DNA of 64,000 nucleotides from Candidatus Woesearchaeota archaeon (GTDB lineage Archaea; Nanobdellota; Nanobdellia; Woesearchaeales; 21-14-0-10-32-9). Of the stretch, positions 19,948-53,377 are shown piece after piece. The notes beneath the pieces were generated by a model. That model was not told the origin of the DNA. It was given only the letters and a program-made list of their open reading frames with translations, and did not search any database. The first letter of the stretch is position 1, and each line of letters starts with the position of its first letter. The position numbers and the translations under genes are program-made. The stretch spans positions 8,221 to 72,220 of the forward strand of contig JAHKLZ010000008.1 of assembly GCA_020854775.1 (NCBI GenBank), written 5' to 3'.

Positions 19948-20029
19948 TTTTTTATCAAGGAGCAAACACTAAAAAATATAAGAGCAAAAACCTGAAATGT
20001 TACTACATATAGGTTAAAGCTAATCTTTG

Positions 20030-20047: not shown

Positions 20048-20285
20048 TAAACAAGTTCACAAGAGGTTTATAAATTTATCTGTTATTTCATACTATGTTT
20101 TGTAAAACATCATTTTTTTATACATATTAAATGATATGCTTTCAAAAACTAATTTCAAAAAATAACAAACCTAAGAAAAGGGTCTGAAAGGCTTCAAATT
20201 ATAAAAGATTTATATATTAGTTTAATTTACAACTATAAAGGAAGGCACAAAATTAGCAAAAAGCTTTTCTGTGGGGTGAAGCACA

Positions 20286-20600: not shown

Positions 20601-20626
20601 CTTTTTTTGTTTTTATTAAATAAAAA

Positions 20627-21100
20627 ATGAGAATAAAAATTCTAAAAGAAAACAGAATTAATGAATATTCTAAATTAGCAAGAGAAACAATCTCAGAGTC
20701 AAAATACTACAATGAAAACGCAAAAAAATCAGAAATACAAAAGTTAGGAATAAATCAAATCAAAAAAGATCTTAAAAACAAAAACAACATTTTCATATAC
20801 GTAGAAAATCAAAAAGAAATAATAGCATTCTGTAATGGATACAAAGAACATGGATTGTTCTGGATAAATTGGATAGGTGTGAAAGAAACACATAGAAAAA
20901 AAGGCGTAGCAAAAAAAATAATACATTATTTAGAAGAAGAAATGAAGAAAAAAAATATTCACAAAATATGGTTTGATACACTAATAAAAAATGAAGAATC
21001 AGTTCAATTAATAAAAAAACTAAAATATAAAAAAGTAAGCACATTAAAGAATCATTGGTACAACCAAGACTTTTATCTCTGGGAAAAAATAATAAACTAA
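20627..21100 (+). CDS. GNAT family N-acetyltransferase
   Basis: IGVKETHRKKGVAKKIIHYLEEEM is the acetyl-CoA-binding motif A (Q/RxxGxG/A). Confidence 0.75.
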   Translation: MRIKILKENRINEYSKLARETISESKYYNENAKKSEIQKLGINQIKKDLKNKNNIFIYVENQKEIIAFCNGYKEHGLFWINWIGVKETHRKKGVAKKIIHYLEEEMKKKNIHKIWFDTLIKNEESVQLIKKLKYKKVSTLKNHWYNQDFYLWEKIIN

Positions 21101-23215
21101 TTACTTAACTCTTCCCTTTAAATTCTTATCAACAATTATTTCAGCACCAATTAATTTTACGCCTTCAGCACTCACACCTTTATCATCAACCAATAATTCA
21201 AATTCAAAAAATTCATCAATACTTATCTCTTTGTTTTCTGATTCAACACCTTCAAAATTCAAATAAGTACCAGGCTCAGCATTAGGACACTCTAATAAAC
21301 CAACTTTTTTACCTTGAGAAACAGCGAGAAGCATACCTTCACTTAAAACACCTCTAAGTTTAGCAGGTTTAAGATTAGATACAACTATTATTTTCTTACC
21401 CACTAATTCCTCAGACTCATAATGACCTGCCAAACCAGAAACAATAGTTCTTTCTTCATCACCAAAACTAATCTTCTCAACAAATAATTTATCAGCATCA
21501 GGATGCTTAAAAACTTCTTTAATCAAAGCAACCCTAAACACAGGCTTCTTTAAAGAATCAAGATTTTTCTTCGCAACAACTTGCTTACCAGAATACTTAT
21601 CAGATAAAGACTTTATGAAATCATCATCAACTTTTTCAAATAAAGGCTTAACTTCACCAATCTTATGATTCTCTAAACTCTTACCCAAATCATTAAAAGA
21701 ATCAAAATCGCAATTTAATTGAGAAAGAATATTCTTAGAAGTTTCAGGCATAACTGGTTGAATCAATAAAGCCAAGTCTTTAATAACATTAACCAAAACA
21801 GTCAAATCATTCCTAGCAACACTTGGCTGTTCCTTTATTTTTTTCCAAGGCTCATTCTCTTGAAAAAAATGATTTGCTTTCTTAGATAAACCCATTATAG
21901 CCTTAATAGCTCTTTTAAGTTCTATATCTTCATAAAAACCAATAATTTCTTTTATTTCAGCATCATAATTCCAAGAATTAGTAATTTTTCCAACCTCGCC
22001 ATCACAAAATTTATTCACAAAAGTCAAAGTTCTATTAACCAAATTAGCAAAATTACCAACAACTTCATTATTTAACTTATCTTGAAAATCCTTCCAAGCA
22101 AAATTAGTATCAGTTCTTTCAGGTCTGTTCATCATCAAATAATAACGCCAAACATCCGCAGGAATACCTGAATCCTGAATGTTATCCCCAAAAATACCTA
22201 CCCCTCTAGATTTAGAAAACTTATCATCTTCATAATTTAGATATTCATTCACACTAAGCGTATCAACTAAAGTGTACCTATCATTCGTACCTATAAGAGA
22301 TGCAGGAAATAAAACTGAGTGAAAAGGAATATTATCTTTTCCCATGAATTGAACAAGCCTAGTCTCATCAGGCGTTTTCCACCAAATCTCCCAATCAGAT
22401 CTATTAGCCTTAGTTATAGCTATGTAACCAATAGGCGCGTCGAACCAAACATAAAAAACTTTTTCTTCGTAACCCTTAAGAGGAACAGGAATACCCCACT
22501 TTAAATCACGAGTAATAGCTCTTTCTTTTAAACCTTCTTTTAACCAAGAATTAGTTGTAGTTATAGCATTCTCAGACCAAGAATTTTTTGTTTTAATAAT
22601 GTGTTTCTCTAACAAAGATTGTAATTCTTGAAGCTTAATGTATAAATGCTTAGTTTTTTTAAGAACAGGCTTAGAACCAGTAATTTTAGACCTAGGATTC
22701 TTTAATTCCTTAGCATCCAACAATTTCCCACAATTATCACATTGATCGCCTCGAGCGTCATTAAAAGAACAAAAAGGACAAATTCCTTCAATGAACCTGT
22801 CAGATAAAAACTTTTGAGCTTCAACATCAAAAAATTGTTCTTCTTCTTTCTCGATCAAAAAATTATTTTTATAGAGTTTAAAAAAAATGTCTTGAGTTAT
22901 TTCTTTATTCTCAGGACTGGAAGTTCTACCAAAACAATCAAAGTCGCAATTAAACCAATCATAAACTTGTTTATGAATCTTAAAAAAATAATCAGTAGCT
23001 TCTTCAGGAGTCATGTTCATTTTTAAAGCAATAGCTTCAGTAGTAGTTCCATGTTCATCAGTACCAAGAACTGATAAAACTTTTTTTCCTCGTAAACGAA
23101 GAAACCTAGTATAAACATCTGCACTAACAATACAAACCATGGTTCCTAAATGAGGAACATTGTTAACGTAAGGCAAAGCACTAGTTACTAAAATCTTTTT
23201 TTCTAACTTAATCAC
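21101..23215 (-). CDS. metG: Methionyl-tRNA synthetase with C-terminal tRNA-binding (EMAP/Trbp111-like) domain
   Basis: 704 aa. HIGH-region PYVNNVPHLGT. Zinc knuckle CPFC...CDNCG. KMSKS as KFSKSRG. C-terminal OB-fold ALIKEVFKHPDADKLFVEKISFGDEERTIVSGL. Confidence 0.9.
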   Translation of the reverse strand: MIKLEKKILVTSALPYVNNVPHLGTMVCIVSADVYTRFLRLRGKKVLSVLGTDEHGTTTEAIALKMNMTPEEATDYFFKIHKQVYDWFNCDFDCFGRTSSPENKEITQDIFFKLYKNNFLIEKEEEQFFDVEAQKFLSDRFIEGICPFCSFNDARGDQCDNCGKLLDAKELKNPRSKITGSKPVLKKTKHLYIKLQELQSLLEKHIIKTKNSWSENAITTTNSWLKEGLKERAITRDLKWGIPVPLKGYEEKVFYVWFDAPIGYIAITKANRSDWEIWWKTPDETRLVQFMGKDNIPFHSVLFPASLIGTNDRYTLVDTLSVNEYLNYEDDKFSKSRGVGIFGDNIQDSGIPADVWRYYLMMNRPERTDTNFAWKDFQDKLNNEVVGNFANLVNRTLTFVNKFCDGEVGKITNSWNYDAEIKEIIGFYEDIELKRAIKAIMGLSKKANHFFQENEPWKKIKEQPSVARNDLTVLVNVIKDLALLIQPVMPETSKNILSQLNCDFDSFNDLGKSLENHKIGEVKPLFEKVDDDFIKSLSDKYSGKQVVAKKNLDSLKKPVFRVALIKEVFKHPDADKLFVEKISFGDEERTIVSGLAGHYESEELVGKKIIVVSNLKPAKLRGVLSEGMLLAVSQGKKVGLLECPNAEPGTYLNFEGVESENKEISIDEFFEFELLVDDKGVSAEGVKLIGAEIIVDKNLKGRVK

Positions 23216-23650: not shown

Positions 23651-24496
23651 TTATTCCTCCAACGATTTCTTTTTTATCTCAATAGAGATTGCTTTCTTTA
23701 AAGTTCTTATATAAAGCGGACAATTCAAATACTCTAATTCGTGTTCTGCGCAGAACTTTATTAAATTTTCCTTTTCTAAATCAGATGAAAATCCGACAAA
23801 TATATTAATTGATTCAGCAGGATTTAAAACATCAAAATTTTTTGCTATCAAAATTTTTTTCAAACTAGAAGAATACTCAACCCATTTTTTTTTCTTAACA
23901 TCAAAATTTTTAAGAGCCCATAATAATTCTTTGAAATCTATTTTTTCTCCTGAACCTGAATAAAAAGAATTTTTTAAAAAAAGTAATTCTTTAAAAACAG
24001 AATCGTCATCACATGCTATGAACGCACCTCCTGAATTAATAGATAAAGGTTTGTGTTTTCCAAAACTACCAATTATAAAATCTCCTTTTAAAGAATTAAC
24101 ATCACCAATAGAACAAACAACGTCATTAACAACCAATGCATTAATGTTTTTAAAATCATCATAAAAACTTAAAGGATCAGAATAAGCATATCCAGGATTA
24201 GTATTTATTATAATTAAAGAATCCTCTAAGAAAGGAAACTCTTCTTTAATTAAAACGCCTTTATTCATAGGTGCTTTAATCACTTTCAAACCAACCTTGT
24301 CACCTGATTTTTCATAAGTGTACCAACCACCTTCTTCTTGAAGAATAAGATTCTTAAAACCTTTATTTTTAGAATAACGCATAATTAATTCAGCAGCGTC
24401 CCTACACTTATCCATAAAAATAACACGCTTCTTACCAACAATGCTAGTTAATAAAGAAACACATTCAACAAAATAATTCTCATCCACAAATAACAC
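23651..24496 (-). CDS. Divergent DegT/aminotransferase-fold protein (hypothetical). The PLP-lysine context is retained but the protein is truncated and active-site residues are altered
   Basis: GDFIIGSFGKHKPLSINSGGAFIACDDD parallels DegT GD..cFSFhptKnl..GeGGa..tnD. NALVVNDVVCSIG parallels L.viEDaAQA.GA. The protein is only 281 aa and lacks the N-terminal ~80 aa. Confidence 0.3.
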   Translation of the reverse strand: MLFVDENYFVECVSLLTSIVGKKRVIFMDKCRDAAELIMRYSKNKGFKNLILQEEGGWYTYEKSGDKVGLKVIKAPMNKGVLIKEEFPFLEDSLIIINTNPGYAYSDPLSFYDDFKNINALVVNDVVCSIGDVNSLKGDFIIGSFGKHKPLSINSGGAFIACDDDSVFKELLFLKNSFYSGSGEKIDFKELLWALKNFDVKKKKWVEYSSSLKKILIAKNFDVLNPAESINIFVGFSSDLEKENLIKFCAEHELEYLNCPLYIRTLKKAISIEIKKKSLEE

Positions 24497-34805: not shown

Positions 34806-36296
34806 TTAAAAGAAATCCTCTTGTTTTTGCTTCTTCGTCTTCTTAAAATAAGGAGGATTAGACAAAACAGTTCTTTCTTTATTATTACTGGATTCAAACT
34901 TAGCTTTAGCCTTAGGAAGAGTTAAATCACCAACAACTTTTAATCTGGCTTTTACTTTATAAGTAAAAATTCTTTCTTCAAAAGGTTCTAATTCTTCAAT
35001 ATCCCAATAAAGCAACGTGCCTTTCTTAGAAGTCTTATTAACCCTAGACGGCCTAACATGACCAAGCTGAGTAGATTCAACGTAATCAGTTATACCTGAT
35101 ACTTTATCAATCACAGTTAAGTTCTTAACGGAACTACCTGAACGACTCCTAACAAATAATCTTATTCTAATATCAGAAGAACCTTCTCCTTTATCATGAT
35201 CAATAACCACAACTTCTTTCTCGACAACCACAGGGCTTCTAAGATTAAAATACATAAATATTGCTAAAACAACCAATAATAAGAAAATAACCAAAGGCCA
35301 ATAATTAGTTCTAACAATTATTATTTTTTGTTCGGTCGGCTTCAAAGTATGAGTCCACAAGAAACTAGATTCGCCATCAACAACTACGAATTCAGCACTA
35401 GGCGAAGTCTTAGAAAATAATTTCTTTAACCAACCAGCAGATAATGTAACTTCAGCTACTGCGTCCCTATTACCAAAGTTCTCAACAATTATCGTGTTAG
35501 TAACAATGAACAAAGCACTCCTAGAAGTTTCAAGTCTTGAAGGAGTAGACGAATAACCCTCCACTATGACTGTACCTCTATCCTGAGAAATAACTCTGTC
35601 AGTTTTAGGATAATAAATTTGAACAACTACTTCATATTCTCCAGGTGCTTGTAAAGGATCAAGCTGAAAAATGAATTCACTAGGAGGAATTTCTTGCAAA
35701 GGACCAATATTTATTTTTTCTTGACCTCTAAACAAATCACTAATAATCCTAATTTCTGCATCTTCAATATTTAAAGGATTCCTGTTTTTCAAACCCACAG
35801 TTAACCTAGCAGTATACCTAGGATCATATTTCTGAGGAAGATTAAGAATTACTTCTACGTTAGGAACAAAATCAAAAAATAATCCATCATAACTCATATG
35901 AACAGGAACTTGAAAAGTTTCAGATTCACCAGTTATTTGAGATTTTAAAATCAGATTCAAAGTATACACACCAATAGGCGTAGCTGGCTTAGGCCAAATA
36001 TTAAGAACAAAACTCTCCGTGCTCTTAGGACGAACAAGTACTGAGGAAGGAGAACTCATCCAATTAAGAGAGTCACCAAGAGAAAGACGAACATCATATC
36101 TTCCTTCAGTTTCAAGCAAATTAGTTATAGTTATGTTATACGTAGCAAACTCATCAGGACTAATCCTGAAATTAATATTATTCTGACTCATAGCGAATTC
36201 AGAAGCTAAAGTAGAAGTTGACAAAAACAACAAGAACATAAAAGATGCTAAAATTATTGATGAAACCCCAAACATTGATGATTTTTTAAATACCAT
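34806..36296 (-). CDS. Secreted/membrane-anchored hypothetical protein (signal peptide, ~300-aa ectodomain, one TM helix, ~145-aa C-terminal tail)
   Basis: N-terminal hydrophobic SSIILASFMFLLFLSTSTLASEF. TM YWPLVIFLLLVVLAIFMYF. No recognisable catalytic motif. Confidence 0.5.
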   Translation of the reverse strand: MVFKKSSMFGVSSIILASFMFLLFLSTSTLASEFAMSQNNINFRISPDEFATYNITITNLLETEGRYDVRLSLGDSLNWMSSPSSVLVRPKSTESFVLNIWPKPATPIGVYTLNLILKSQITGESETFQVPVHMSYDGLFFDFVPNVEVILNLPQKYDPRYTARLTVGLKNRNPLNIEDAEIRIISDLFRGQEKINIGPLQEIPPSEFIFQLDPLQAPGEYEVVVQIYYPKTDRVISQDRGTVIVEGYSSTPSRLETSRSALFIVTNTIIVENFGNRDAVAEVTLSAGWLKKLFSKTSPSAEFVVVDGESSFLWTHTLKPTEQKIIIVRTNYWPLVIFLLLVVLAIFMYFNLRSPVVVEKEVVVIDHDKGEGSSDIRIRLFVRSRSGSSVKNLTVIDKVSGITDYVESTQLGHVRPSRVNKTSKKGTLLYWDIEELEPFEERIFTYKVKARLKVVGDLTLPKAKAKFESSNNKERTVLSNPPYFKKTKKQKQEDFF

Positions 36297-43960: not shown

Positions 43961-44683
43961 GTGATACCTATGGCTAAGAAAAAAGATGAAAAACCCGAAC
44001 ACATGAAACACGTAGATACATACATGAAACACGCTGATGCAATAGATGTGTTCTCTGATAATTTACACTTGAAAATAATGAATGCTACTTCTAAGACTTT
44101 ATTAAAAGAAGGATCATCATGGGTTAAAGACGGTGAATATGATAGAAAAGCTATTGCTAAAGGTGGAAAAGTAATAGATGATTTAACTGACGCTATGCTT
44201 AATGACTTAATAGCTGCTTCGTCACCACAATTCAAAAAGATGTATAATATTGATTTACCAAAATTAGGAGATGATCCTGCTTCAAAGCATTTCTATGAAA
44301 AATTCTTAGGTATAAATAAGAAAAATGTTAGAGAATTCGTAGATAAAAACAAGAAGAATTGGAGTCCTGAAGTACACCACGATTTCACGAGTGATTACGC
44401 TAAAAACTGGGTTAACGAACTTAGTTCTTATGCACACTCACACATAGACGCTGAGAAACACTTAGATGATTACATAAAAGAATACAAATTAAAAGACATC
44501 ATAGACGATAAGATGCTTCCCGCATTTAAGAAATCAAATGAAGCTTCTTTACTAATAAGAGGAATGCTTGATTATTACAGAAAAGAAGGAAAGAACCCTG
44601 ATGCAGGCGTAGTGCAAAACTTAGCGAATGCATACAAGCAAGAATCTAAAGGAAAAATAGACATAACAAAATACCTAAAATAA
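43961..44683 (+). CDS. Hypothetical lysine-rich protein (240 aa)
   Basis: ORF with coding-like composition. No recognisable domain. Confidence 0.4.
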   Translation: MIPMAKKKDEKPEHMKHVDTYMKHADAIDVFSDNLHLKIMNATSKTLLKEGSSWVKDGEYDRKAIAKGGKVIDDLTDAMLNDLIAASSPQFKKMYNIDLPKLGDDPASKHFYEKFLGINKKNVREFVDKNKKNWSPEVHHDFTSDYAKNWVNELSSYAHSHIDAEKHLDDYIKEYKLKDIIDDKMLPAFKKSNEASLLIRGMLDYYRKEGKNPDAGVVQNLANAYKQESKGKIDITKYLK

Positions 44684-44721
44684 AAAATAAAAAAACTTTT
44701 TTTCTTTTTTTTCTTATTGTT

Positions 44722-46938
44722 TTATCTTTCGAATTTAGGAACGAATAATTCTTTGTGTTCTTCTTCCATCTCCACGACTTTACCCATAATAGTTAAGTCA
44801 TGATGATATCTTACATCCTTAATATTATAAGAAGGATAATACAAATACAAGAAATTATTATACTTCAAATCCTCTACATTAATGGAAAAGAAATCAGGTT
44901 CATTAATGAATAATCCGCCTATTACGACTGAGTCGTTAAATGCTGTTTCATTAAATGTTACTTCTTCTTCACCTTTGAATAAGTCCCTAAAGAAACCAGA
45001 ACTAATAGAATATGTTTTTTCAGGAACTAACAAAACAGGATTTTGTTCATTCGCACCAAGAACTCTTTCAGAAACAAGAATAACTTCGTAATTACCAGGT
45101 AATAAAGAAGTTTTTATCTCAGTTTCAGGATAAGACAAATTAAATATTCTTACAAAGCCCGGATTATCTTTCATTATTAACATAACAGTTAATATTTCAT
45201 TTTCTTCAAGAACACGACCATCTTCCATTGCTAAATCCAAAGACCATGTTCTTTTCTCAGCGTCTTCTAATTCATTAATTTCTACGTTATTAACAAAATA
45301 AGATTTTTTTCTAGGCCTAATAATTATTTCTTTTTCAGGATACACTTCTAATATGAATTCATAAGACTCCTCAACTGTTAAATCAGAATCATAACTAACT
45401 TGGTAGTTCCCAGTTAAACTATGAAATTCTCCTCCGAAGCAAGGAGGAAGAAAACCTTCAATAACTGCTGAACCATCTTTCATCTTAGAATTACCAACAG
45501 GAATCGTAACGTCCAAACAAGTATATGCAAGAGCAAAATCCTCAACAGGACTCTCATCATAACCATTTCTAACAATTACTTTAACAGGAATAGTTCTTTG
45601 ATCAGGATACCCGAATCCACCAAAATCATCTTCTAATTCATAAGAATCATAAACTATTTCTTCGAAGTCAGTTAACAAGAACTCGTTTTGTCTAACATTA
45701 ACTTCAACTACGAACCTAAAAATATAACCTTCGTCATTAAAAGCAAAGGGATCCTCTACGGTAACTAGTACAGGATAAGCAATATCATAAAAGAATTCAT
45801 AATCAGTCATAGCAAAATTAAACAAACCAAGCATACTAATTTGGAGCTTAGGCACCGCGGTAATAACAGGACCAAAACCAGGCTTTATGTTCAAATACAT
45901 AGGCCAAGAAGGCATATAATCAAAAGAAACCCTTGTTCTTTCAAGCTTATCAGCATCAATATCAAAAGGTGGAAAAATAAAAGATGAATAAATCAAGTTA
46001 GCATAAGGATCATTAGTTAAAGGAATAAAAGAATCATAAGCACCCATAACTTGCAAGAAACCAGAATTATCAGCTAATTCAGTTCTCAAAAGTTCTTTAG
46101 ATTCAAACAAGTTCCAAATAGCAGGAGAACTAACAGTGTGCTCACTATAACGACTAATAGGGGGAATAACAGCATTTTTACCACCCATACTCATTAATTC
46201 AAGCACTTTAATAGTGTACTCTTCCAAGAAAGAAGCATCAGAATAAAGTTGTGATTCATACAATAATTGCTTAGCAAAATCAAAAGTTTTTCTAAATTCC
46301 AAATCAACAACGTCATTAAACTTATTAAGCTTAGCAACAGTGTCATCCTCAAAGAACTCAACTTCTAAACCCCAATCAAGCTCAACAAAAACATCATCCA
46401 TTCTAAACAAAACATTAGCAAAAGGCTCAGAATAAGAAATAGAATACAAAGAAGCATAATTACTAAAATCATTCAAACAATCAACGATGTTAGATTCAAT
46501 GTAATCCTCAACTTGAGCCTTAACAGAATTAGGGCCGGATTCAAGAGATGGCACACCCATAATTAAAGAAACACTATCACCACCAGGATTATTAGGAGAA
46601 TAATACCAATAAGGAATAACTTGATTACTACCAGGAAAAAACTCTAAAGCAGTATTCAAATACTCAGGGACTAAACCATGCTGAAACTGAGAAACATCTA
46701 TGTAACCCCCTTGCAAACCCACCCTTATTAGAGCTTCTTTAGTTAAAGAACCAACACAATAATTAACATCAAGAACTAAAGGACTAAGCCTAGCGTCAAA
46801 CTCAGTAACCAAAGCATCAGTAGGATCAGGCTCTACTTCATCAAACAAAAGAAAAAAAGCAATAAAAACTAAAACAAACACTATTAAACCCAAAATAACA
46901 AACACCGTAACTTGACCCTTTTTTTTATCCCAAACCAT
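44722..46938 (-). CDS. Large membrane-anchored extracytoplasmic protein (738 aa), no recognisable domains
   Basis: N-terminal signal-anchor VTVFVILGLIVFVLVFIAFFLLF, then ~700 aa of acidic, aromatic-rich sequence. A 3-nt gap to the upstream 1379-aa gene suggests an operon. Confidence 0.6.
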   Translation of the reverse strand: MVWDKKKGQVTVFVILGLIVFVLVFIAFFLLFDEVEPDPTDALVTEFDARLSPLVLDVNYCVGSLTKEALIRVGLQGGYIDVSQFQHGLVPEYLNTALEFFPGSNQVIPYWYYSPNNPGGDSVSLIMGVPSLESGPNSVKAQVEDYIESNIVDCLNDFSNYASLYSISYSEPFANVLFRMDDVFVELDWGLEVEFFEDDTVAKLNKFNDVVDLEFRKTFDFAKQLLYESQLYSDASFLEEYTIKVLELMSMGGKNAVIPPISRYSEHTVSSPAIWNLFESKELLRTELADNSGFLQVMGAYDSFIPLTNDPYANLIYSSFIFPPFDIDADKLERTRVSFDYMPSWPMYLNIKPGFGPVITAVPKLQISMLGLFNFAMTDYEFFYDIAYPVLVTVEDPFAFNDEGYIFRFVVEVNVRQNEFLLTDFEEIVYDSYELEDDFGGFGYPDQRTIPVKVIVRNGYDESPVEDFALAYTCLDVTIPVGNSKMKDGSAVIEGFLPPCFGGEFHSLTGNYQVSYDSDLTVEESYEFILEVYPEKEIIIRPRKKSYFVNNVEINELEDAEKRTWSLDLAMEDGRVLEENEILTVMLIMKDNPGFVRIFNLSYPETEIKTSLLPGNYEVILVSERVLGANEQNPVLLVPEKTYSISSGFFRDLFKGEEEVTFNETAFNDSVVIGGLFINEPDFFSINVEDLKYNNFLYLYYPSYNIKDVRYHHDLTIMGKVVEMEEEHKELFVPKFER

Positions 46939-46941
46939 TTT

Positions 46942-49900
46942 TTATTCACTCACCAATTTTTGACAAATATAATTCTTATCCCCAACGACATCAAAATAAT
47001 CACGAAGACCATTAACACTCACAGAGAACTCTAAACAAACCTTAACGAAGTCACCTTCATGCCTTATAATCTTACTACCCATACCCCCGAAGTTCTCAGG
47101 AACACCACTAGACGCCATAGGCTCCTCAGAACCAATAACTAACTTAGTAAAATCAACTTTATTACCTGCAGAGTCATACATATAAATATTATAACCTAAC
47201 TCACCACCTTTACTAGTATAAATTCCTCCTTCAACCCAATAATTATAATAAGAATCCTCACCAGGAACTCTTTGAATACTTGATTTTCTACCCGTTATAA
47301 AAGCGCCAGGCCTATGACCCGCAGCACCCGCCTTAACCAATAAACCACCAGTATCAGGACTAACCGCTCTAAAACTCTTACTACAGAAACCCCAATCACC
47401 ACTACCCGTATCAGCGAACCACTGAGAAAGCTGACCCATAGCTGTATGCCTTCCAAAATCAGAAGAAGACTCATCATCATCTCCCCCAAAGAAAGAACCA
47501 AGACTCCTAATAGCAGTTATACCACTAGAAACACCCCACGCAGTTTTAACACCCGTAGTAATAGAACCAAAATGATCCTCAAACTTCATATCAACAGCAT
47601 TATTCCTTTGCTGACGAGACAAATTCTTTTCAGCGCCTTTAATAAGCTTAGCCGTATCCCTACTCTCCTTATTAATATTTGACCTTGAACATTCATCAAT
47701 ATTAAAAGGTTCACTATTACATAAAGCTAATGCTTCCGAATAAGCAGTATGTTTTTCTTGAGCCCTACGACAAGACCTAGACTGCTCATTACTTTCACAA
47801 GAATCTATAACCTCTTGACGAGCTGCATTCACCACTTCTTTATCTATAATTTTATTAGATTCAAAAATACTAATACCTGAAGCAACACGATTTAACTCAT
47901 CAATATTTTCCTGATGTTCAGCTTTAGTTTTATAAAAATCATTCAAAAGTTTAACTTCAGTAGCTAAACCTTTCTTAAGATCAGGATACTTCTCAATTAA
48001 TGCTTCATATTTCTTTTGGTTAGCTTCAGAAACCATATTAAAAGATTCAACGTTACCGAAAATACCGACGAATTTATTTATATCATGACTACTAAGCTGA
48101 GTTTCTAAATCTGAAATCTCTTTTTCCACACTAGCTAATTCCTTTTCTAACTCTTGTTTTGATTCTTCAAGTCTTATTAAATCCGCTAAATGCTCATTTT
48201 CCTCACCTATAATCTCAGGATGTTTTTCAAGATCTTCTATTTCAACCCTAATACTTTCCAACTCTTTTTCTAAATTTAAATACTTATCAGTTTTTCTGTT
48301 CAAATCATTATTAATTACTTCATACTTTCTAATATTAGATCTGGCAAAAGAATCTTGATTGAAATTACCAATAAGTTTACCTTCAGGAGAATAAACATTA
48401 TAAGAATCAACAACTATTTTATCACCATCAAATCTGACATTATCAGGACTAACAATTCCTATGACTGTTTCAGTAACTTCATCCTTCTTTGTGATTCTTT
48501 CAACTACTTGGAACTGATAATCATCCTCATCATAAACCAAGTACTTGTTACCACCTAAAGATTCGCTGTAAGATAAATCAACAGCTTTAGGGAAGTGACC
48601 TACTTGTTGATCAATAGCTAATCTGCTCTTAATAATCCTATCAGCCTGAGTTAAAGGAACCTGACAGAAAGGAGCAGGATCAACCTTGTTAATATTCTTA
48701 GCTTGTTCAACCACGCTCTTCAAAGTGCTTATGAAAGTTCCTAAGCTTTGAACAAACACATTAGTTAAACACGCACCTTTAAGCAAGTTATTAACAGAGT
48801 TACCTTGAGCCATTATGCTACACGCAATAGGGAAAGCAAAACCAAACAAATTATAAGGATTATTAACAACATCGCTGAATCTAGAAGAAAAATCCCTAAA
48901 CATATTAACAAAAGGAATCGCATCTAAAACACCTGTAGCTGTGTAAACACACGTAGAATAAGATCTTTCAGCCTCACAATAAGAAACACTTTGACCATGT
49001 TCAATCATACCAGTAGTTAAACAATCAAGATAATTACACTCAATGGATTGTTCAACTTTCAAATGATGAATAACAGCAGGAACACACTGCATAGCATAAG
49101 CAACATATTTACTCTTGTAAGGATCGTAGAAACTAGAATAACTATCTCTACCAAGCATTTGAGGAACCATATCCGCATCAACAGATAAATAATTCATAAA
49201 ATCATCCAAGCCACTAACCAAATCAAAACCAACAATATCAGAAACAAAACTACCTTTACACATTAAGTAATTACAAAACTTAGCTGCATTCTTCACCATT
49301 TTATCATCTGATTTAAGAAGATTAATTGAAGACCCTGTTTCAATCATACCCAGTCCCGCATTTTGTTGACCCATCATTAAACCCACAACTTCTAAGACTT
49401 CACCAGCAGAACTCAATAAGCCCCCAACACTTTCTATGCCTGTTAACATAGTGCAAAACCTTATAGCGTTATCCATACTAGAATCCAACCCTTCAAAGAC
49501 TTCTTCGGATCTCTCAATTTGCTCCCTTGTTGACTCAATACTATTATAGATCTTATCAGTTAAAGTATCCCTATTATCAAGAGTAATACTAAAAGTAAGA
49601 TTTACTTTTTCAGGCTGAGAATAAAAATAACCATCTTTCTTAGATAATATTTCAAATTCACAAACATGCTTTAATTCACGAATATCAGAGTACCTATTAT
49701 TGCTAGGATTATCAAGACCTGTTTGTCTTAAACCAACCCTAACATAAACTTTTTTAGAATCTTTATCAAAATTAAGAACATCAAACTTAGTAACATCTCC
49801 GCGAGTACCTGTTTCATTCACAATAACAGGAACACAACTACCAGTGTTCCCTTTAACACTTAACAATTCAGCACCTGAAACTCCTGATAAAATAGCTTCA

Positions 49901-51081
49901 ACATAAAAAGTTCTTTCATAACCCATGTTACGAACATTCATTTTATTAGAAGACTGCACAGTAGCACCAAGACTCCAAAAATTAGGAATAATTTCTCTTT
50001 CAACTTCTACTAATTCAACTTCTAAATCTTCACGAACCTTATTTCCCGCAGCATCAGTAAAAATAACAGGAACAACATAAGTTCCTTTAGTAGTAACTAA
50101 AGACCTAACCCCCGCGGAACAATCAAATAATCCATCACGCAAAATACACTGACCAGTAATATTAGCCGAACCAACACTTTCACCTATTACTAACATATCC
50201 AAGACCGGGCTAACCGCGTCATAAACCTTAGCACTAATCCTGAACGTGTCATCAACACCAGTAAATCCAATTTCTCTAGCATCCACAACTTTTATTTCCT
50301 TAATCTCAGGAGGAGAAGCATCGCAAACTAAATTAAAATTATTATGCGTCACTTGTCTTCCTGCATCATCACTACTAGGACGACCCTCAAAAGGAAACAA
50401 TGAAGCTCTAAATGCTTGATTATCTTCACAAACAATATTAACAGTACCATTACAATTATCAAAATCACAACCAATTATGTAACCCCTAGTACCCCCCAAG
50501 CTAAAACCTAAAAGACCACGAAAAAAACCAGCTTCTGAACTTTCAAATTTTAAAATAATATTATTAAAACCTGAAGAGATATAACAAACTTCTTCGTGAC
50601 AAAACCTAGTCCCTATTAAATTAACCTTAGGATTAGCAGTCGTTCTCTTAAGAGGAATAATATTAGAAGAAACATCATCACCACGTTTTGCTATTATTTC
50701 AACTTCAGAAACATGAGTTGATTTTTCAAGAATTAACCCTCTAAACAAACAATTATAATATTCTTCTCTTTGTTCACAAGACGCTTTGCTTATATCCCAA
50801 GAACCATATTGACTCACATAACTATTCGTATAAATATTATCGTTTAAGTCACTAACATCAAAAACTATTCCTTGAAGAAAATCAGCATGAACTTTAACTT
50901 CTAAGTCAACAACGATAGGCGCCCTCTCAGAATAATAAGTAAGAGTTTTATTATTCCAAACTAATCTAGAATCAGTAATTTCAAGCGCGAACACACTATT
51001 TAACAAAGAAATAAAAATGAACAATAACAAAAATACCTTAACACCTTTCAAATGACTCACACCTTTTTTGAATTTAAACAT
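46942..51081 (-). CDS. Giant secreted protein (1379 aa): signal peptide, Cys-rich N-terminal region, central coiled coil, Gly/Ser-rich C-terminal domain. No recognisable domains
   Basis: N-terminal KVFLLLFIFISLLNSVFA|LEI signal. The first 700 aa are Cys-rich. Heptad segments LEKELESIRVEIEDLEKH...ELEKELASVEKEISDLETQL. Lies 43 nt downstream of the AI-2E gene. Confidence 0.6.
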   Translation of the reverse strand: MFKFKKGVSHLKGVKVFLLLFIFISLLNSVFALEITDSRLVWNNKTLTYYSERAPIVVDLEVKVHADFLQGIVFDVSDLNDNIYTNSYVSQYGSWDISKASCEQREEYYNCLFRGLILEKSTHVSEVEIIAKRGDDVSSNIIPLKRTTANPKVNLIGTRFCHEEVCYISSGFNNIILKFESSEAGFFRGLLGFSLGGTRGYIIGCDFDNCNGTVNIVCEDNQAFRASLFPFEGRPSSDDAGRQVTHNNFNLVCDASPPEIKEIKVVDAREIGFTGVDDTFRISAKVYDAVSPVLDMLVIGESVGSANITGQCILRDGLFDCSAGVRSLVTTKGTYVVPVIFTDAAGNKVREDLEVELVEVEREIIPNFWSLGATVQSSNKMNVRNMGYERTFYVEAILSGVSGAELLSVKGNTGSCVPVIVNETGTRGDVTKFDVLNFDKDSKKVYVRVGLRQTGLDNPSNNRYSDIRELKHVCEFEILSKKDGYFYSQPEKVNLTFSITLDNRDTLTDKIYNSIESTREQIERSEEVFEGLDSSMDNAIRFCTMLTGIESVGGLLSSAGEVLEVVGLMMGQQNAGLGMIETGSSINLLKSDDKMVKNAAKFCNYLMCKGSFVSDIVGFDLVSGLDDFMNYLSVDADMVPQMLGRDSYSSFYDPYKSKYVAYAMQCVPAVIHHLKVEQSIECNYLDCLTTGMIEHGQSVSYCEAERSYSTCVYTATGVLDAIPFVNMFRDFSSRFSDVVNNPYNLFGFAFPIACSIMAQGNSVNNLLKGACLTNVFVQSLGTFISTLKSVVEQAKNINKVDPAPFCQVPLTQADRIIKSRLAIDQQVGHFPKAVDLSYSESLGGNKYLVYDEDDYQFQVVERITKKDEVTETVIGIVSPDNVRFDGDKIVVDSYNVYSPEGKLIGNFNQDSFARSNIRKYEVINNDLNRKTDKYLNLEKELESIRVEIEDLEKHPEIIGEENEHLADLIRLEESKQELEKELASVEKEISDLETQLSSHDINKFVGIFGNVESFNMVSEANQKKYEALIEKYPDLKKGLATEVKLLNDFYKTKAEHQENIDELNRVASGISIFESNKIIDKEVVNAARQEVIDSCESNEQSRSCRRAQEKHTAYSEALALCNSEPFNIDECSRSNINKESRDTAKLIKGAEKNLSRQQRNNAVDMKFEDHFGSITTGVKTAWGVSSGITAIRSLGSFFGGDDDESSSDFGRHTAMGQLSQWFADTGSGDWGFCSKSFRAVSPDTGGLLVKAGAAGHRPGAFITGRKSSIQRVPGEDSYYNYWVEGGIYTSKGGELGYNIYMYDSAGNKVDFTKLVIGSEEPMASSGVPENFGGMGSKIIRHEGDFVKVCLEFSVSVNGLRDYFDVVGDKNYICQKLVSE

Positions 51082-51124
51082 TTTTATTTAAAAAGTTTTC
51101 TGAAAAACTCCTTGAAAATACTCA

Positions 51125-52171
51125 TTAATTCTTTCTTATTAACACTGCTTGATTAAAAAAATTAATTAATAACACACAAAGCGCAACCAATATAGGACCC
51201 ATAATTATTCCAAAAACACCAAATAATTTTAATCCGCCAAAGATTGCCATCACCATTAAAACAGGATGCATGCCTGCTTTTTCACCTAAAAATTTAGGCT
51301 TGAAAACATTCTCCATATACAATATTATGAAAGTTCCAAAAGCTAAAACACCTATGCCTGCAAATAGATTTCCTTGAACTAATTGAAATAAACCAGCAGG
51401 TATCCAAACCATGGCAGTCCCAACCAAAGGAATCAACGCTAAAACAGTCATCATTAATCCCCAAAAAATAGGATTTTTAAGACCGAAAATAAAAAACGCG
51501 AATCCCCCAAGGAAACCCTGAACGAAAGCCATCAATATGTGCCCATACATCACTCCATGAAGAACTTTTTTAGATTCTTTTGTTATTTCATCTTTATGCC
51601 TATTAGATACAGGAAGCATACCCATTATGCTAGCCAGAATCTTTTCACCCTCTTTAAATATATAAAATAATAAGAATAACAATATTAACAAACCAACAAA
51701 TATCTCCGCTAACGAATTAATTATACTAGAAACGGACACCGAAAACGTGTCTCTAATAGCGCTAAACAAAGGAACAACTATGTTTTCACTAGACACATTT
51801 AAACCAAGAGATGACTCAATAGCTGAATCAACATCTTCAAAATTATAATGTGAAACCAAATTGTAAGTATTAGTAACTTCTTTTACCACGCTATTAACAA
51901 ATAAGTAAGAAGAAACACCAATTAATAAAACTATTAATACAACGAGTAAAGAAGCTGACAAATTAGGACCTAAACCTTTGTTTCTTAAAAACTTATTAAG
52001 AGGAAAAAAGAACACTCCCAGCGTAGCGCCGAGAACTAAAGAATAAATAAAAGGTTTAAACAATAATGCTAAAGCTAAAACAGCCAATACATAAGCAAAT
52101 AACAAGAAATAAAAAGCATTTTTAGAACCATTAGGAAATTCACTTTTTATTTTGTCGGATTTTTTCTTCAA
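51125..52171 (-). CDS. AI-2E family (PerM/UPF0118) membrane transporter
   Basis: Multi-TM protein with an AI-2E-like core (GIIMGPILVA, FGLKNPIFWG). The track ORF runs to 52336 and overlaps the HIT gene. The likely start is the TTG at 52169-52171, preceded by a GGTGAG Shine-Dalgarno, giving ~349 aa. Confidence 0.65.
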   Translation of the reverse strand: MKKKSDKIKSEFPNGSKNAFYFLLFAYVLAVLALALLFKPFIYSLVLGATLGVFFFPLNKFLRNKGLGPNLSASLLVVLIVLLIGVSSYLFVNSVVKEVTNTYNLVSHYNFEDVDSAIESSLGLNVSSENIVVPLFSAIRDTFSVSVSSIINSLAEIFVGLLILLFLLFYIFKEGEKILASIMGMLPVSNRHKDEITKESKKVLHGVMYGHILMAFVQGFLGGFAFFIFGLKNPIFWGLMMTVLALIPLVGTAMVWIPAGLFQLVQGNLFAGIGVLAFGTFIILYMENVFKPKFLGEKAGMHPVLMVMAIFGGLKLFGVFGIIMGPILVALCVLLINFFNQAVLIRKN

Positions 52172-52273
52172 ACACTCACCTTTTACAAAGAAGACGAAAC
52201 TTTTTAGTATATAAATGTGTTGATAATCCTTAAAAGAAAAGATTTTTATAAAAAAAGAAGTGTATCTTATTCC

Positions 52274-52876
52274 ATGAGTGGTATCAGCGAAGAAGAATGG
52301 CAAAAAATGAGCCCTGAAGAAAGAGAAGAATTTCAAATAAAGAATTGCGTGTTTTGTAAAATTATTAGCGGAGAAATACCTTCTAAAAAAATTTATGACG
52401 ATAATAACTTCGTAGGCATACTAGATATTAATCCCGGAGTGAAAGGACACATTTTAGTTCTTCCTAAAAAACACGTTCAAATAATGCCTCAACTAGGCAC
52501 TGAGCTTAGTGGTGAATTAGGAATTGTTTGCAAAAAAATATCTGAGAAAATGAAAAAAGCATTAAGTGTTAATGATGTTTCAGTATTTGTTGCTAACGGC
52601 GCAGTCGCCGGACAAAACGCGCCTCATTTCATGATGCATATTATTCCAAGAAAAGAAAATGATAATATATCTCTTAATCCTGAATTAAAAAAATTTAGTT
52701 TAGAAAAAATTAATGATTACAGAAAAAAAATAATCAAAGGTCTAGGTTTGCCTGATTTAACAAATGAAAAAAAACAAGATGACTCCAAAGAAGAAAAACA
52801 AGAAGTTAAAGAATTAGAAACACAAAATGTTCCTGACAAGGATCTATTAGATAAAATATCAAAAATGTTTAATTAA
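52274..52876 (+). CDS. HIT-family (histidine triad) nucleotide hydrolase with K/E-rich C-terminal tail
   Basis: CVFCKIISGEIP. Histidine triad APHFMMHIIPR. The start is ambiguous between the ATG at 52274 and the ATG at 52307. Confidence 0.75.
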   Translation: MSGISEEEWQKMSPEEREEFQIKNCVFCKIISGEIPSKKIYDDNNFVGILDINPGVKGHILVLPKKHVQIMPQLGTELSGELGIVCKKISEKMKKALSVNDVSVFVANGAVAGQNAPHFMMHIIPRKENDNISLNPELKKFSLEKINDYRKKIIKGLGLPDLTNEKKQDDSKEEKQEVKELETQNVPDKDLLDKISKMFN

Positions 52877-52885
52877 AGAAAAAAA

Positions 52886-53377
52886 ATGGAATTGCAATTA
52901 GAACAAGTAATAATTAGGGATGAAGAATTAGTTGTTTTTTTCCCAGAAGAAACAATTGTTGAAGGAGAACTAGTAGTTGCACCCATACACGCGTTTAAAA
53001 CATTAGAAGATATACCTGAAGCACTTATTGAGAAAATGTTTCACGTGGTTAACAAAATGAGTTCTAGCTTGTTTGATTTATTAGGATGTCATGGAACTAA
53101 TTTGTTAATACAGAACGGAGAAATAGCGGGACAAAAATCAGAATCATTATTCATAAGAATAATACCTAGATTCCAAGATGATTCTTTACAATTAAAATGG
53201 GATTCTTCTCCGAGCAGTCCTGAAGATTTGGAAAACGTGGTGAAATCTTTTAAAGATGCTGATGAAGAAAAAATACAAGAAGCATATTTAGAAGAACAAA
53301 AAAAACAAGCAACACAAAAAGTTCCTGAAGAAGAACAAAATGATTACTTGTTAAAATCTTTAAAAAGAAATCCTTAA
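52886..53377 (+). CDS. HIT-like protein, degenerate (histidine triad lost)
   Basis: Same fold as the upstream gene (VVAPIHAFKTLEDIP, IAGQKSESLFIRIIPR), but the His triad is replaced by S-L-F-I-R-I. Tandem paralogue. Confidence 0.55.
   Translation: MELQLEQVIIRDEELVVFFPEETIVEGELVVAPIHAFKTLEDIPEALIEKMFHVVNKMSSSLFDLLGCHGTNLLIQNGEIAGQKSESLFIRIIPRFQDDSLQLKWDSSPSSPEDLENVVKSFKDADEEKIQEAYLEEQKKQATQKVPEEEQNDYLLKSLKRNP

What the first reader, a model, noticed from the sequence alone, without database searches (positions are those of the whole stretch)
44722..52171. Operon of an AI-2E transporter and two giant domain-less extracytoplasmic proteins (1379 aa and 738 aa)
Three minus-strand genes are packed with gaps of 43 nt and 3 nt. 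The 1379-aa product has a cleavable signal peptide, a Cys-rich ~700-aa N-terminal region, a long central coiled coil and a Gly/Ser-rich C-terminal domain. The 738-aa product has an N-terminal signal anchor and an acidic, aromatic-rich ectodomain. Neither carries any motif I recognise (no protease, adhesin, S-layer or pilin signatures). In small-genome DPANN archaea, giant surface proteins are prime candidates for host attachment or interaction. Tight coupling with a putative AI-2E exporter suggests a dedicated export/assembly or surface-interaction system. This is the best candidate in the window for a previously undescribed system.
Basis: partly seen in the sequence, partly recalled or inferred. 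Interest (0 to 1): 0.75.

Follow-up and report, generated by a model that had tools for sequence, protein, structure and literature searches.

The report
Pilin-like anchor with giant surface protein
Two adjacent genes of a small-genome (DPANN, Woesearchaeota) archaeon encode a huge secreted, disulfide-rich protein and a membrane-anchored partner with a pilin-type signal peptide. The two genes travel together in hundreds of related genomes and probably form a surface device for contacting other cells, while the neighbouring transporter gene is not part of it.

Summary
The three ORFs exist as described, in a Candidatus Woesearchaeota genome. The conserved unit is the two large genes, not the trio.

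- **The 738-aa protein (family A).** It starts with a near-invariant (K/R)(K/R)(G/A)|Q-V-T-x-F-I-I motif followed by about 22 hydrophobic residues. Predicted structure: a novel alpha/beta head plus CnaB/Ig-like beta-sandwiches.
- **The 1379-aa protein (family B).** It has a Sec signal peptide, about five Ig-like domains, a helical core with 11 family-invariant cysteines, a heptad-repeat helical stretch and a C-terminal domain. In other genomes that last part, the heptad stretch plus C-terminal domain ("c"), is a separate gene.
- **Size of family B.** An exhaustive profile search found 1087 clusters.
- **Pairing.** In 86 loci, A almost always abuts B or a 1400–3080-aa distant relative. Some of those relatives end in peptidoglycan hydrolase domains (SLT, Amidase_3, phage tail lysozyme). 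These are the "large extracellular murein transglycosylase proteins" already noted in Pace- and Woesearchaeota.
- **AI-2E.** It is adjacent only in the window and two close relatives, and the 43-nt gap holds T-runs and a TATA-like box.

Best reading: a pilin-like anchor presents a secreted giant for cell-to-cell or host contact. The function is inferred, not shown.

The parts
44722..46938 (-). Gene A: 738-aa protein with a pilin-like N-terminal anchor (family A)
   Evidence: ORF. The word-indexed search gave 33 homologues. The AF2 model has pLDDT 83.
46843..46938 (-). Class III (prepilin-type) signal-peptide-like N-terminus of A. The sequence is M-V-W-D-K-K-K-G | Q-V-T-V-F-V-I-L-G followed by a hydrophobic helix to aa 32. 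The putative cleavage site is G8|Q9.
   Evidence: Logo of 100 of 104 family A ORFs: -3 K/R 99%, -2 K/R 100%, -1 G/A 100%, +1 Q 100%, +3 T 97%, +5 F 98%, +7 I 96%, +9 G/A 98%, hydrophobic to +22. The AF2 model has a helix at aa 7-32 followed by a low-confidence acidic/Pro linker at aa 33-48. Cleavage itself is not shown.
45649..46794 (-). Conserved alpha/beta head domain of A (aa ~49-430), with invariant C61, G77-G78 (the QGGY motif), P130, C154 and P389, and near-invariant E239
44725..45606 (-). C-terminal beta-sandwich region of A (aa ~445-738), transthyretin/CnaB/Ig-like
46942..51081 (-). Gene B: 1379-aa secreted, Cys-rich giant (family B fused to 'c'). An alternative start at TTG 51051 would give 1369 aa.
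   Evidence: ORF. Full-length homologues in L001 and L002 at 28-29% identity. The exhaustive profile search found 1087 clusters at E<=1e-3.
50986..51081 (-). Sec-type signal peptide of B (aa 1-32, with ...NSVFA|LE)
   Evidence: This is the only TM-like segment in B. Homologues have comparable n-h-c N-termini. The cleavage site is inferred from the -3/-1 rule.
49579..50985 (-). Array of about five beta-sandwich (Ig/fn3-like) domains of B (aa 33-501), with conserved Cys pairs
48601..49563 (-). Family-defining helical core of B (aa 507-827). It holds seven of the family's 11 invariant Cys (543, 603, 608, 666, 682, 687, 702, 711 lie here) and the motif DPYKS..A...C.PA.I.H.K....IEC.YL.CL.
   Evidence: Invariant columns in alignment A8. 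All-helical in the AF2 model, pLDDT 60-92. No PDB fold match ranked above the Ig-like hits. Profile-profile matches to the hydrolase-bearing giants at 80% and 60% probability.
49273..49455 (-). Constant-length (~55-65 aa), sequence-hypervariable loop rich in small and hydrophobic residues, between invariant C543 and C603
   Evidence: Composition across family members: 35-50% G/A/S/T and few charged residues. AF2 confidence is below 50 here. Its role is unknown.
47692..48369 (-). Charged helical region of B (aa ~905-1130), with a heptad-like stretch at aa 914-1007
   Evidence: Crude heptad score and Pro/Gly-free runs. Only weak matches to coiled-coil families in Pfam and NCBIfam.
46945..47604 (-). 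C-terminal domain 'c' of B (aa 1160-1379), ending in the conserved ...C-Q-x-x-V-x-E-COOH
   Evidence: Present in 31 of the top family B hits. It is encoded as a separate signal-peptide-bearing gene after B in L011, L012, L028, L030, L040, L068 and L080. No Pfam or PDB match.
46939..46955 (-). B/A junction: GGTGA in the last codons of B, then TAA, AAA and the ATG of A. Both genes are in the same frame.
   Evidence: Sequence read directly. Translational coupling is inferred.
51125..52171 (-). AI-2E family transporter gene (348 aa from TTG 52171). A neighbour, probably not a component.
   Evidence: PF01594 at E=4.7e-49. Called as 348 aa in public records. GGTGA at 52176-52180 and TTTATATA at 52208-52215. 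Adjacent to B-A only in the window, L001 and L010.
51082..51124 (-). 43-nt gap between AI-2E and B, with two T5 runs and TTTTTAAATA (51085-51094). Possibly a terminator plus a promoter for B.
   Evidence: Sequence read directly. Consensus-level inference only.
44684..44721 (-). T-rich stretch after the stop codon of A (TTTTTTTATTTTTTATTTT), a likely end of the transcription unit
   Evidence: Sequence read directly. It is followed by a convergent + strand gene at 43961-44683.

Best explanation
The feature is a two-gene cell-surface module. It is not a three-gene export system.

**Gene B (1379 aa).** It is exported by Sec and its signal peptide is removed. It has no membrane anchor of its own. 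It consists of about five Ig-like beta-sandwich domains, a disulfide-stapled helical core that defines a very large DPANN family, a heptad-repeat helical spacer and a C-terminal domain that is a separate protein elsewhere.

**Gene A (738 aa).** It is made with a class III (prepilin-type) signal peptide. After presumed cleavage at G8|Q9 by a prepilin-type peptidase, its hydrophobic N-terminal helix keeps it in the membrane, or possibly inserts it into a type IV filament. An acidic linker, a novel alpha/beta head and CnaB/Ig-like beta-sandwiches project outward.

**How they work together.** A and B are made in fixed proportion (3-nt gap, Shine-Dalgarno-like motif in the end of B) and form a complex in which A tethers or presents B on the cell surface. 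The complex mediates contact with another cell's envelope, whether host or partner. In paralogous modules of related archaea the giant partner carries peptidoglycan hydrolase heads, which points to bacterial walls as one target. The window's B has no recognisable hydrolase.

**What is shown.** Gene structure, families, N-terminal motif, predicted folds, adjacency statistics, and hydrolase domains in relatives.

**What is inferred.** Signal-peptide cleavage, A-B binding, surface display, and a role in cell contact.
For: 1. Strict adjacency. Among family A genes in 88 loci (86 after removing two duplicates), 33 abut a family B gene and 28 abut a 1400-3080-aa giant on the same strand. Only 8 with enough flank lack one, and most of those have B within 2 kb. 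35 lie at contig edges.
2. The median gap is 1 nt, and both gene orders occur: partner downstream 51, upstream 12. The same pairing appears.
3. The class III-like N-terminus is the most conserved part of family A. The pattern [KR][KR][GA]QVT[IVL]F[IV]I alone retrieved more than 600 stretches in GTDB genomes, of which 325 were confirmed relatives.
4. B has a Sec-type N-terminus and no other TM segment. A has exactly one, at the N-terminus.
5. Predicted structures have pLDDT 83 and 82. Both contain adhesin-type beta-sandwich arrays.
6. B has 30 Cys, 11 of them invariant across 60 family members. This fits an extracellular disulfide-stabilised protein.
7. The giants paired with family A in other genomes carry SLT, Amidase_3 and Phage_lysozyme2 domains, or are followed by Amidase_2/M74 or SLT+Amidase_3 genes. 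They share the Cys-rich core with B: colinear HMM matches and hhalign probabilities of 80% and 60%, with 96% between the two giant types.
8. The literature has already proposed these giants as extracellular cell-wall binding or degrading proteins (PMC8204110; PMC9723730).
9. AI-2E linkage is rare, 3 loci. The gap before B has terminator-like and promoter-like elements.
Against: - There is no experimental or expression evidence.
- No prepilin peptidase or type IV filament ATPase or platform gene lies in the 64-kb window. Processing of A is therefore untested.
- The AF2 model of A shows a 26-residue helix followed by a disordered linker, not the long continuous alpha-1 helix of canonical pilins.
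- Pfam's class III signal model did not match.
- A-B binding was not modelled.
- The window's B has no hydrolase, lectin or other domain that names a ligand.
- The module sits in a housekeeping neighbourhood and is very widespread, which would also fit a structural envelope role.
- Homology between B and the hydrolase-bearing giants rests on moderate profile-profile probabilities (60-80%).
Confidence: 0.5

Rival explanations
1. Pilus-tip complex. A is a modular minor pilin that is polymerised into a type IV filament through its N-terminal helix. B is a Sec-secreted tip adhesin carried by it, analogous to PilY1 with minor pilins. The device therefore works at a distance from the cell.
For: - The class III signal motif has Gln at +1 and a hydrophobic run of about 22 residues.
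- Small pilin-like genes (KKGG|LLVQV..., ~184 aa) recur inside the sister modules in 6 loci.
- Large adhesins, including PilY-like ones, are reported in archaeal type IV filament loci, and DPANN archaea have such systems (bioRxiv 10.64898/2026.04.22.720090).
- Modular pilins are known in Streptococcus sanguinis (PMC8179133 and PMC9934059, listed).
Against: - No filament ATPase, platform or peptidase genes lie next to A-B in the window. None is among the recurrent neighbour families in 86 loci.
- The predicted N-terminal helix is short and separated from the head by a disordered acidic linker. This resembles Sulfolobus bindosome binding proteins more than pilins.
- At 600-960 aa, A is far larger than known pilins.
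Confidence: 0.2
2. Structural cell envelope. A and B are the anchor and canopy of a two-component S-layer-like lattice (SlaB/SlaA-like) in Woese-, Pace- and Nanoarchaeota.
For: - The operon pairs a large secreted protein with a membrane-anchored partner.
- It sits in a core-genome, housekeeping neighbourhood that is conserved in relatives.
- It is very widely distributed.
Against: - 16 of 86 loci hold two or more A genes, with tandem non-identical modules.
- The giant partner is polymorphic and in many genomes ends in peptidoglycan hydrolases, which is not expected for a lattice protein.
- The SlaB similarity is confined to generic beta-sandwiches.
- There are no S-layer Pfam domains.
- The anchor is N-terminal and of the class III type, unlike SlaB.
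Confidence: 0.15
3. AI-2E transporter, B and A form one three-gene system in which the transporter exports or assembles the giants.
For: - The three genes are on the same strand with a 43-nt gap.
- The arrangement AI-2E, B, A recurs in L001 and L010.
- Many other loci contain some polytopic membrane protein: family 'D', ~270 aa, in 30 loci.
Against: - AI-2E is adjacent in only 3 of 86 loci. It is absent even from close relatives L002 and L008.
- Family D is unrelated to AI-2E (hhalign probability 2%).
- Both giants carry their own signal peptides (Sec and class III), so no dedicated exporter is needed.
- The 43-nt gap has T-runs and a TATA-like box.
- From general knowledge, AI-2E family members are small-molecule or ion transporters, not protein exporters.
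Confidence: 0.07
4. Mobile-element or viral cargo, meaning structural or entry proteins of an integrated virus or plasmid.
For: One copy of the module (L003/L033) lies next to Bro-N, integrase-like and Y1 transposase genes. Phage tail lysozyme and other lytic domains occur in sister giants.
Against: - No family A relative was found in 2.9 million IMG/VR viral contigs.
- There are no PHROG matches.
- The window locus lies between housekeeping genes and is syntenic with L001 and L010, including the exosome superoperon.
- GC content is unremarkable across the region.
Confidence: 0.03

Closest known systems
[quoted passage not shown] 2021, PMC8204110; also Vigneron et al. 2022, PMC9723730)
   Same: - Same lineages, with giant Sec-secreted Cys-rich proteins.
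- Here they are found immediately next to a family A gene, like the window's B.
- They share the Cys-rich core with B by colinear HMM matches and profile-profile comparison.
   Different: - The window's B has no SLT, amidase or lysozyme domain.
- It is shorter, and its C-terminal module ('c') has an unknown fold.
- The papers, as read here, do not mention the pilin-like partner gene or the pairing.
Archaeal class III signal-peptide proteins: type IV pilins or archaellins, and the non-pilin cargo of the Sulfolobus bindosome (sugar-binding proteins)
   Same: - N-terminus of basic residues, then G/A at -1 and Q at +1, then a hydrophobic helix of about 22 residues.
- As with bindosome proteins, a large functional ectodomain follows a linker, and the gene is not linked to filament assembly genes (for the concept).
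   Different: - The ectodomain of about 700 aa has a novel head domain.
- The motif is Q-V-T-x-F rather than the DUF361 motif Q-x-S-x-E (the latter from memory).
- There is no Pfam class III hit.
- Processing is untested.
Modular minor pilins and tip adhesins of bacterial type IV pili (S. sanguinis PilB/PilC; PilY1 with minor pilins; GspK)
   Same: The concept is the same: a pilin-type N-terminus carries a bulky functional module, paired with a large Sec-secreted adhesin.
   Different: - There is no sequence or fold similarity.
- No vWA, lectin or beta-propeller domains are present.
- No pilin globular module was recognised in the AF2 model.
Sulfolobales S-layer pair SlaA/SlaB
   Different: - The anchor is at the opposite end and of a different type.
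- The modules are multi-copy and polymorphic.
- Paralogues carry hydrolase heads.
Gram-positive CnaB/Ig-fold adhesins and sortase pilins (SpaA, BcpA, TIE protein)
   Same: These are the best fold matches for the C-terminal half of A.
   Different: There is no LPXTG sorting signal or C-terminal anchor. The similarity is fold-level only, at 8-13% identity.

Membership tests
AI-2E transporter family (PF01594), 51125-52171 | Match to the family profile above the curated cut-off, and a polytopic membrane topology | tested here: met
   E=4.7e-49, 167.8 bits against a cut-off of 34.3, over aa 78-392. About 8 hydrophobic segments.
   AI-2E is adjacent in the window, L001 and L010 only. The pair A-B or A-giant is conserved in essentially all informative loci.
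Archaeal class III signal-peptide proteins (type IV pilin-like) | Basic residues, then G/A at -1, then a hydrophobic stretch of about 20 residues at the extreme N-terminus | tested here: met
   KKKG|QVTVFVILGLIVFVLVFIAFFLLF in the window protein. The family logo is near-invariant from -3 to +9.
Archaeal class III signal-peptide proteins (type IV pilin-like) | Match to the Pfam class III signal model (DUF361-type Q-x-S-x-E motif) | tested here: not met
   No Pfam family at E<=1 for the 738-aa protein. The motif here is Q-V-T-x-F.
Archaeal class III signal-peptide proteins (type IV pilin-like) | Cleavage by a prepilin peptidase (PibD/FlaK/EppA) encoded in the genome | not testable with these tools
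   No such gene was found among the window ORFs scanned. The rest of the genome could not be read.
Canonical type IV pilin fold | A long continuous N-terminal alpha-helix whose C-terminal half packs on a globular beta-sheet domain | tested here: inconclusive
   The AF2 model has a helix at aa 7-32, then a linker at aa 33-48 with pLDDT <50, then a separate head. This is a prediction only.
Type IV filament locus | Adjacent assembly ATPase and platform protein genes | tested here: not met
   None in the window. None among the recurrent neighbour families.
Large murein lytic transglycosylase proteins of Pace/Woesearchaeota (fam00969-like) | SLT (GH23) or another peptidoglycan hydrolase domain | tested here: not met
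   No hydrolase domain in the 1379-aa protein. Such domains are present in L005, L051, L049 and L083.
Large murein lytic transglycosylase proteins of Pace/Woesearchaeota (fam00969-like) | Shared giant-protein scaffold (homologous core) and genomic pairing with a family A gene | tested here: met
   Colinear HMM matches at E from 1e-6 to 1e-2. hhalign probabilities of 80% and 60% for the Cys-rich core, and 92% for the Ig array of type 2. 28 A-giant adjacencies. The homology is moderate, not strong.
S-layer proteins (SlaA/SlaB-like or Pfam S-layer families) | S-layer domain match, and a single-copy lattice-forming pair | tested here: not met
   No Pfam match. Fold similarity is limited to generic beta-sandwiches. 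Multiple tandem modules occur per locus in relatives. Lattice formation is not testable here.
Sortase-dependent CnaB adhesins and pilins | C-terminal LPXTG-type sorting signal with a hydrophobic tail | tested here: not met
   The only hydrophobic segment is N-terminal. The C-terminus reads ...ELFVPKFER.
Phage or viral structural proteins | Match to viral protein families, or presence on viral contigs | tested here: not met
   No PHROG match beyond coiled-coil noise. No family A relative in IMG/VR.

The most novel reading that the evidence does not exclude
A and B, together with the sister A+giant modules, could be a DPANN-specific, polymorphic host-envelope-engaging apparatus. A carrier processed by a prepilin peptidase would present a giant disulfide-rich effector at the membrane or on a type IV filament. 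The effector's conserved Cys-knotted helical core, with its constant-length hypervariable hydrophobic loop, would engage or insert into the partner cell's envelope. Its C-terminal head would be exchangeable: the 'c' domain here, and SLT, amidase or phage-type lysozyme in other genomes. If so, this would be the long-sought attachment or feeding machinery of uncultured Woese- and Pacearchaeota, and its head domains would report whether the host is a bacterium.
Probability: 0.25. Interest if true: 0.85.

Novelty: new variant of a known kind. Interest (0 to 1): 0.6.

Why it matters
Woesearchaeota and Pacearchaeota are among the most abundant uncultured archaea. Their hosts and their mode of attachment are unknown.

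This analysis gives three things:
- **A concrete, widespread genetic unit.** It consists of a pilin-type anchored protein and a giant secreted partner. The unit links the previously noted "large murein transglycosylase proteins" to a presentation mechanism, the class III signal peptide.
- **A much larger family.** It includes hydrolase-less members such as the one in this window.
- **Testable predictions.** These are cleavage at G|Q, A-B complex formation, localisation at cell contacts, and head-domain type as a predictor of host wall chemistry.

The work also removes a misleading association with AI-2E transporters. The function itself remains inferred.

Tried and rejected
- **Curated libraries.** Pfam, NCBIfam, PHROGs and PDB sequence searches on both giants, and on profiles of families A, B and the 'c' domain, gave nothing beyond coiled-coil noise.
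- **Word-indexed homology search.** For the 1379-aa protein, alone and as a trimmed three-sequence profile, it found only the protein itself and one relative. Candidate lists were capped at 8000. The exhaustive profile search was needed.
- **Structure prediction with locus-derived homologues.** It was redone with proteins from the exhaustive search after two size refusals.
- **Is family D a divergent AI-2E?** No.
- **Is a VKOR/thioredoxin pair a recurrent neighbour?** It appears only in L005.
- **Viral origin.** Rejected.
- **Literature.** Searches found no description of the A-B pairing.

Full report
**Observation**

The region holds three minus-strand ORFs:
- 44722-46938, 738 aa, called A here.
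- 46942-51081, 1379 aa, called B here.
- 51125-52336, the maximal ORF of the third gene.

The third ORF is an AI-2E family transporter (PF01594, E=4.7e-49). Its likely start is TTG 52171, giving 348 aa, as called in public records. That start has GGTGA 4 nt upstream and TTTATATA at 52208-52215.

The window is from a Candidatus Woesearchaeota genome. GC content is about 32%. The context is housekeeping:
- Downstream lies the archaeal Pop5, proteasome-alpha, SBDS, Rrp4, Rrp41, Rrp42 cluster, followed by HerA.
- Upstream lie two HIT genes, deoxyhypusine synthase, MscS, L10e and SRP54.

- B has one N-terminal hydrophobic segment ending in VFA|LE.
- 23 of its 30 Cys lie in aa 102-806.
- aa 914-1007 are heptad-like and are followed by a charged helical stretch.
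- The C-terminal domain is rich in G and S.
- A has one N-terminal TM-like segment and an acidic (pI 4.2), aromatic-rich ectodomain.
- Neither protein matches Pfam, NCBIfam, PHROGs or PDB sequences.

All homologues of A share an N-terminal motif. In 100 of 104 family members collected here the pattern is as follows:
- Position -3 is K/R in 99%, and -2 is K/R in 100%.
- Position -1 is G/A in 100%, and +1 is Q in 100%.
- Position +2 is V in 91%, +3 is T in 97%, and +5 is F in 98%.
- Position +7 is I in 96%, and +9 is G/A in 98%.
- Hydrophobic residues then continue to about +22.

This is the architecture of an archaeal class III (prepilin-type) signal peptide. The window protein reads MVWDKKKG|QVTVFVILG.... 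The Gln at +1 recalls EppA-type substrates of methanogens (my recollection; the concept is covered in the papers listed and read).

The motif alone retrieved more than 600 stretches in GTDB species-representative genomes. Of these, 325 were confirmed relatives, and all 80 that were fetched came from Woese-, Pace- or Nanoarchaeota-type MAGs.

Three points remain open:
- Pfam's class III model did not match.
- No prepilin peptidase or filament assembly gene lies in the window.
- Cleavage has not been shown.

**Structure of A**

AlphaFold2 with a 33-sequence alignment gave pLDDT 83. The model has four parts:
- A helix at aa 7-32.
- A low-confidence acidic/Pro linker at aa 33-48.
- A conserved alpha/beta head at aa ~49-430. 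It has invariant C61, GG77-78, P130, C154 and P389, and near-invariant E239.
- Beta-sandwich domains from aa ~445 to the end.

The short helix followed by a linker resembles class III-anchored cargo proteins of the bindosome type more than a canonical pilin.

**Family and structure of B**

B has full-length homologues (28-29% identity) next to A homologues in L001 and L002. It has partial homologues, covering the N-terminal array and the core, in L003 and L006.

An exhaustive profile search with the core found 1087 representative clusters at E<=1e-3, and 684 at E<=1e-10. Two architectures occur:
- The core at the C-terminus of proteins of about 1000-1100 aa.
- The core in the middle of proteins of 1200-1500 aa that end like the window protein.

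In several genomes the part after the core is a separate gene with its own signal peptide. I call this gene 'c'. It lies directly after B in L011, L012, L028, L030, L040, L068 and L080. The window's B is therefore a B+c fusion.

Eleven Cys are invariant across 60 diverse members.

AlphaFold2 on aa 32-880 gave pLDDT 82:
- About five beta-sandwich domains with pLDDT >90.
- An all-helical core at aa 507-827.
- A low-confidence segment between invariant C543 and C603.

That segment has constant length (55-65 aa) and is hypervariable in sequence. It is rich in small and hydrophobic residues.

**Synteny**

I scanned 88 loci, of which 86 are non-duplicate, with HMMs built here:
- 33 A genes abut a B gene on the same strand.
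- 28 abut a giant of 1400-3080 aa on the same strand.
- 35 lie at contig edges.
- 8 with enough flank lack an immediate partner, and most of these have B within 2 kb.
- The median gap is 1 nt. Because my ORF calls take the first possible start, gaps may be slightly underestimated.
- Both gene orders occur.
- 16 loci carry two or more A genes.

In the window, the junction reads GGTGA...TAA-AAA-ATG, with both genes in the same frame.

AI-2E is adjacent only in the window, L001 and L010.

Other recurrent neighbours are:
- A polytopic membrane protein of about 270 aa, 'D', in 30 loci, typically in the order A-B-c-D.
- MetRS.
- Ribosomal protein S3Ae.
- A 414-aa family.
- Small pilin-like genes.

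D is unrelated to AI-2E and is absent from the window's clade.

The 43-nt gap between AI-2E and B contains two T5 runs and TTTTTAAATA. An alternative start for B at TTG 51051, with GGTG 8 nt upstream, has the same TATA-to-start spacing as the AI-2E gene. It also yields a signal peptide of the length seen in homologues.

The trio is thus a local neighbourhood of one clade. The pair is the unit.

**Link to known proteins**

The giants paired with A in other genomes carry peptidoglycan hydrolase domains:
- C-terminal SLT in L005 and L083.
- SLT plus Amidase_3 in L051.
- Phage_lysozyme2 in L049.
- In L004 and L035 the giant is followed by an Amidase_2/M74 or an SLT+Amidase_3 gene.

They match the B core colinearly. 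By profile-profile comparison the probabilities are 80% and 60%, and the two giant types match each other at 96%.

[quoted passage not shown] 2021 found enriched in small-genome Pace- and Woesearchaeota. They proposed that these proteins bind or degrade bacterial walls (PMC8204110). Vigneron et al. 2022 made a similar proposal (PMC9723730).

The close relatives L001 and L010 have a small SLT gene about 2 kb beyond A. The window does not.

I found no paper describing the pilin-like partner or the pairing.

**Mechanism (inferred)**

- B is exported by Sec and has no anchor.
- A is anchored, or possibly polymerised, through a class III-processed N-terminal helix.
- Tight translational coupling and near-universal adjacency in either order argue that the two proteins act as a complex, with A holding B at the surface.
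- Ig-like and CnaB-like arrays, disulfide stabilisation and lytic heads in paralogues argue for contact with another cell's envelope.
- The window version lacks a lytic head, so its ligand is unknown.

**Rivals**

- Pilus-tip complex (0.2).
- S-layer-like envelope pair (0.15).
- Mobile or viral cargo (0.03). There are no relatives in IMG/VR and no PHROG match.

**Verdict**

- It is wrong about the AI-2E coupling and about the absence of a pilin signature.
- The module is a new, hydrolase-less variant within a large and barely characterised DPANN family. Distant members of that family have been noted in the literature.
- The pairing with a class III-type anchor appears not to have been described.

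Noticed in passing
window 46939-46955: The 1379-aa and 738-aa genes are in the same reading frame, separated only by TAA plus one codon (AAA). A GGTGA Shine-Dalgarno-like motif lies in the last codons of the upstream gene.
   Followed up: partly
window 51049-51094: The 1379-aa gene may start at TTG 51051 (L11), with GGTG 8 nt upstream and TTTTTAAATA 34-43 nt upstream. This mirrors the spacing at the AI-2E gene (TTTATATA at 52208-52215, TTG at 52171). The gene may therefore have its own promoter and encode 1369 aa.
   Followed up: partly
window 43961-44683 (+): A convergent 240-aa cytoplasmic ORF (MAKKKDEKP...) has only a sub-threshold TPM hit. It has positional counterparts with similar N-termini after the A gene in L001 (208 and 218 aa) and L002 (245 aa). 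No Pfam match and no known function.
   Followed up: partly
L068:11633-12475, L040:11575-12456, L012:11819-12568 and 27 other loci: A recurrent membrane protein of about 270 aa with 5-6 TM segments ('D') follows B-c and precedes the next A gene. It has no Pfam match and is unrelated to AI-2E. It is absent from the window's clade.
   Followed up: partly
L001:9351-10370, L010:12101-13240: The closest syntenic relatives carry a small (339 and 379 aa) SLT lytic transglycosylase gene about 2 kb past the A gene. The window has no counterpart.
   Followed up: partly
L005:8918-9570: A VKOR and a thioredoxin gene lie directly upstream of an A+giant module. This could suggest help with extracellular disulfide formation, but the arrangement was seen only in this locus.
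   Followed up: yes
L003 (same contig as L033): 15161-22135: One copy of the module lies beside Bro-N, integrase-like/TPR, methyltransferase and Y1 transposase genes. This looks like a mobile-element context.
   Followed up: no
L004:17351-17926, L037:17411-17965 and 4 other loci: Small (~184-191 aa) proteins with pilin-like N-termini (KKG|S/G followed by a hydrophobic run) sit between the giant genes of the sister modules.
   Followed up: partly
L002, L003, L012, L040, L068 and others (18 loci): Methionyl-tRNA synthetase is a frequent immediate upstream neighbour of the module. In the window, MetRS is about 21 kb away (21101-23215).
   Followed up: no
window 52217-53377 (+): Two tandem HIT-family genes are divergent from the AI-2E gene. 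The maximal AI-2E ORF (TTG 52336) overlaps the first one, which supports the shorter AI-2E start.
   Followed up: no
window 34806-36296 (-) and 23651-24496 (-): ORFs of 496 aa and 281 aa have no Pfam match at E<=0.001.
   Followed up: no
window 16010-19480 (-): A class II ribonucleotide reductase of 1156 aa has its barrel domain matched in two stretches, plus a short RuvA_C-like hit. It may contain an insertion.
   Followed up: no
loci L008, L010, L012 and others (record titles): Many TPA-assembled MAGs carrying this DPANN-specific module are titled 'uncultured Methanosarcinales archaeon'. This looks like a labelling artefact of those records.
   Followed up: no
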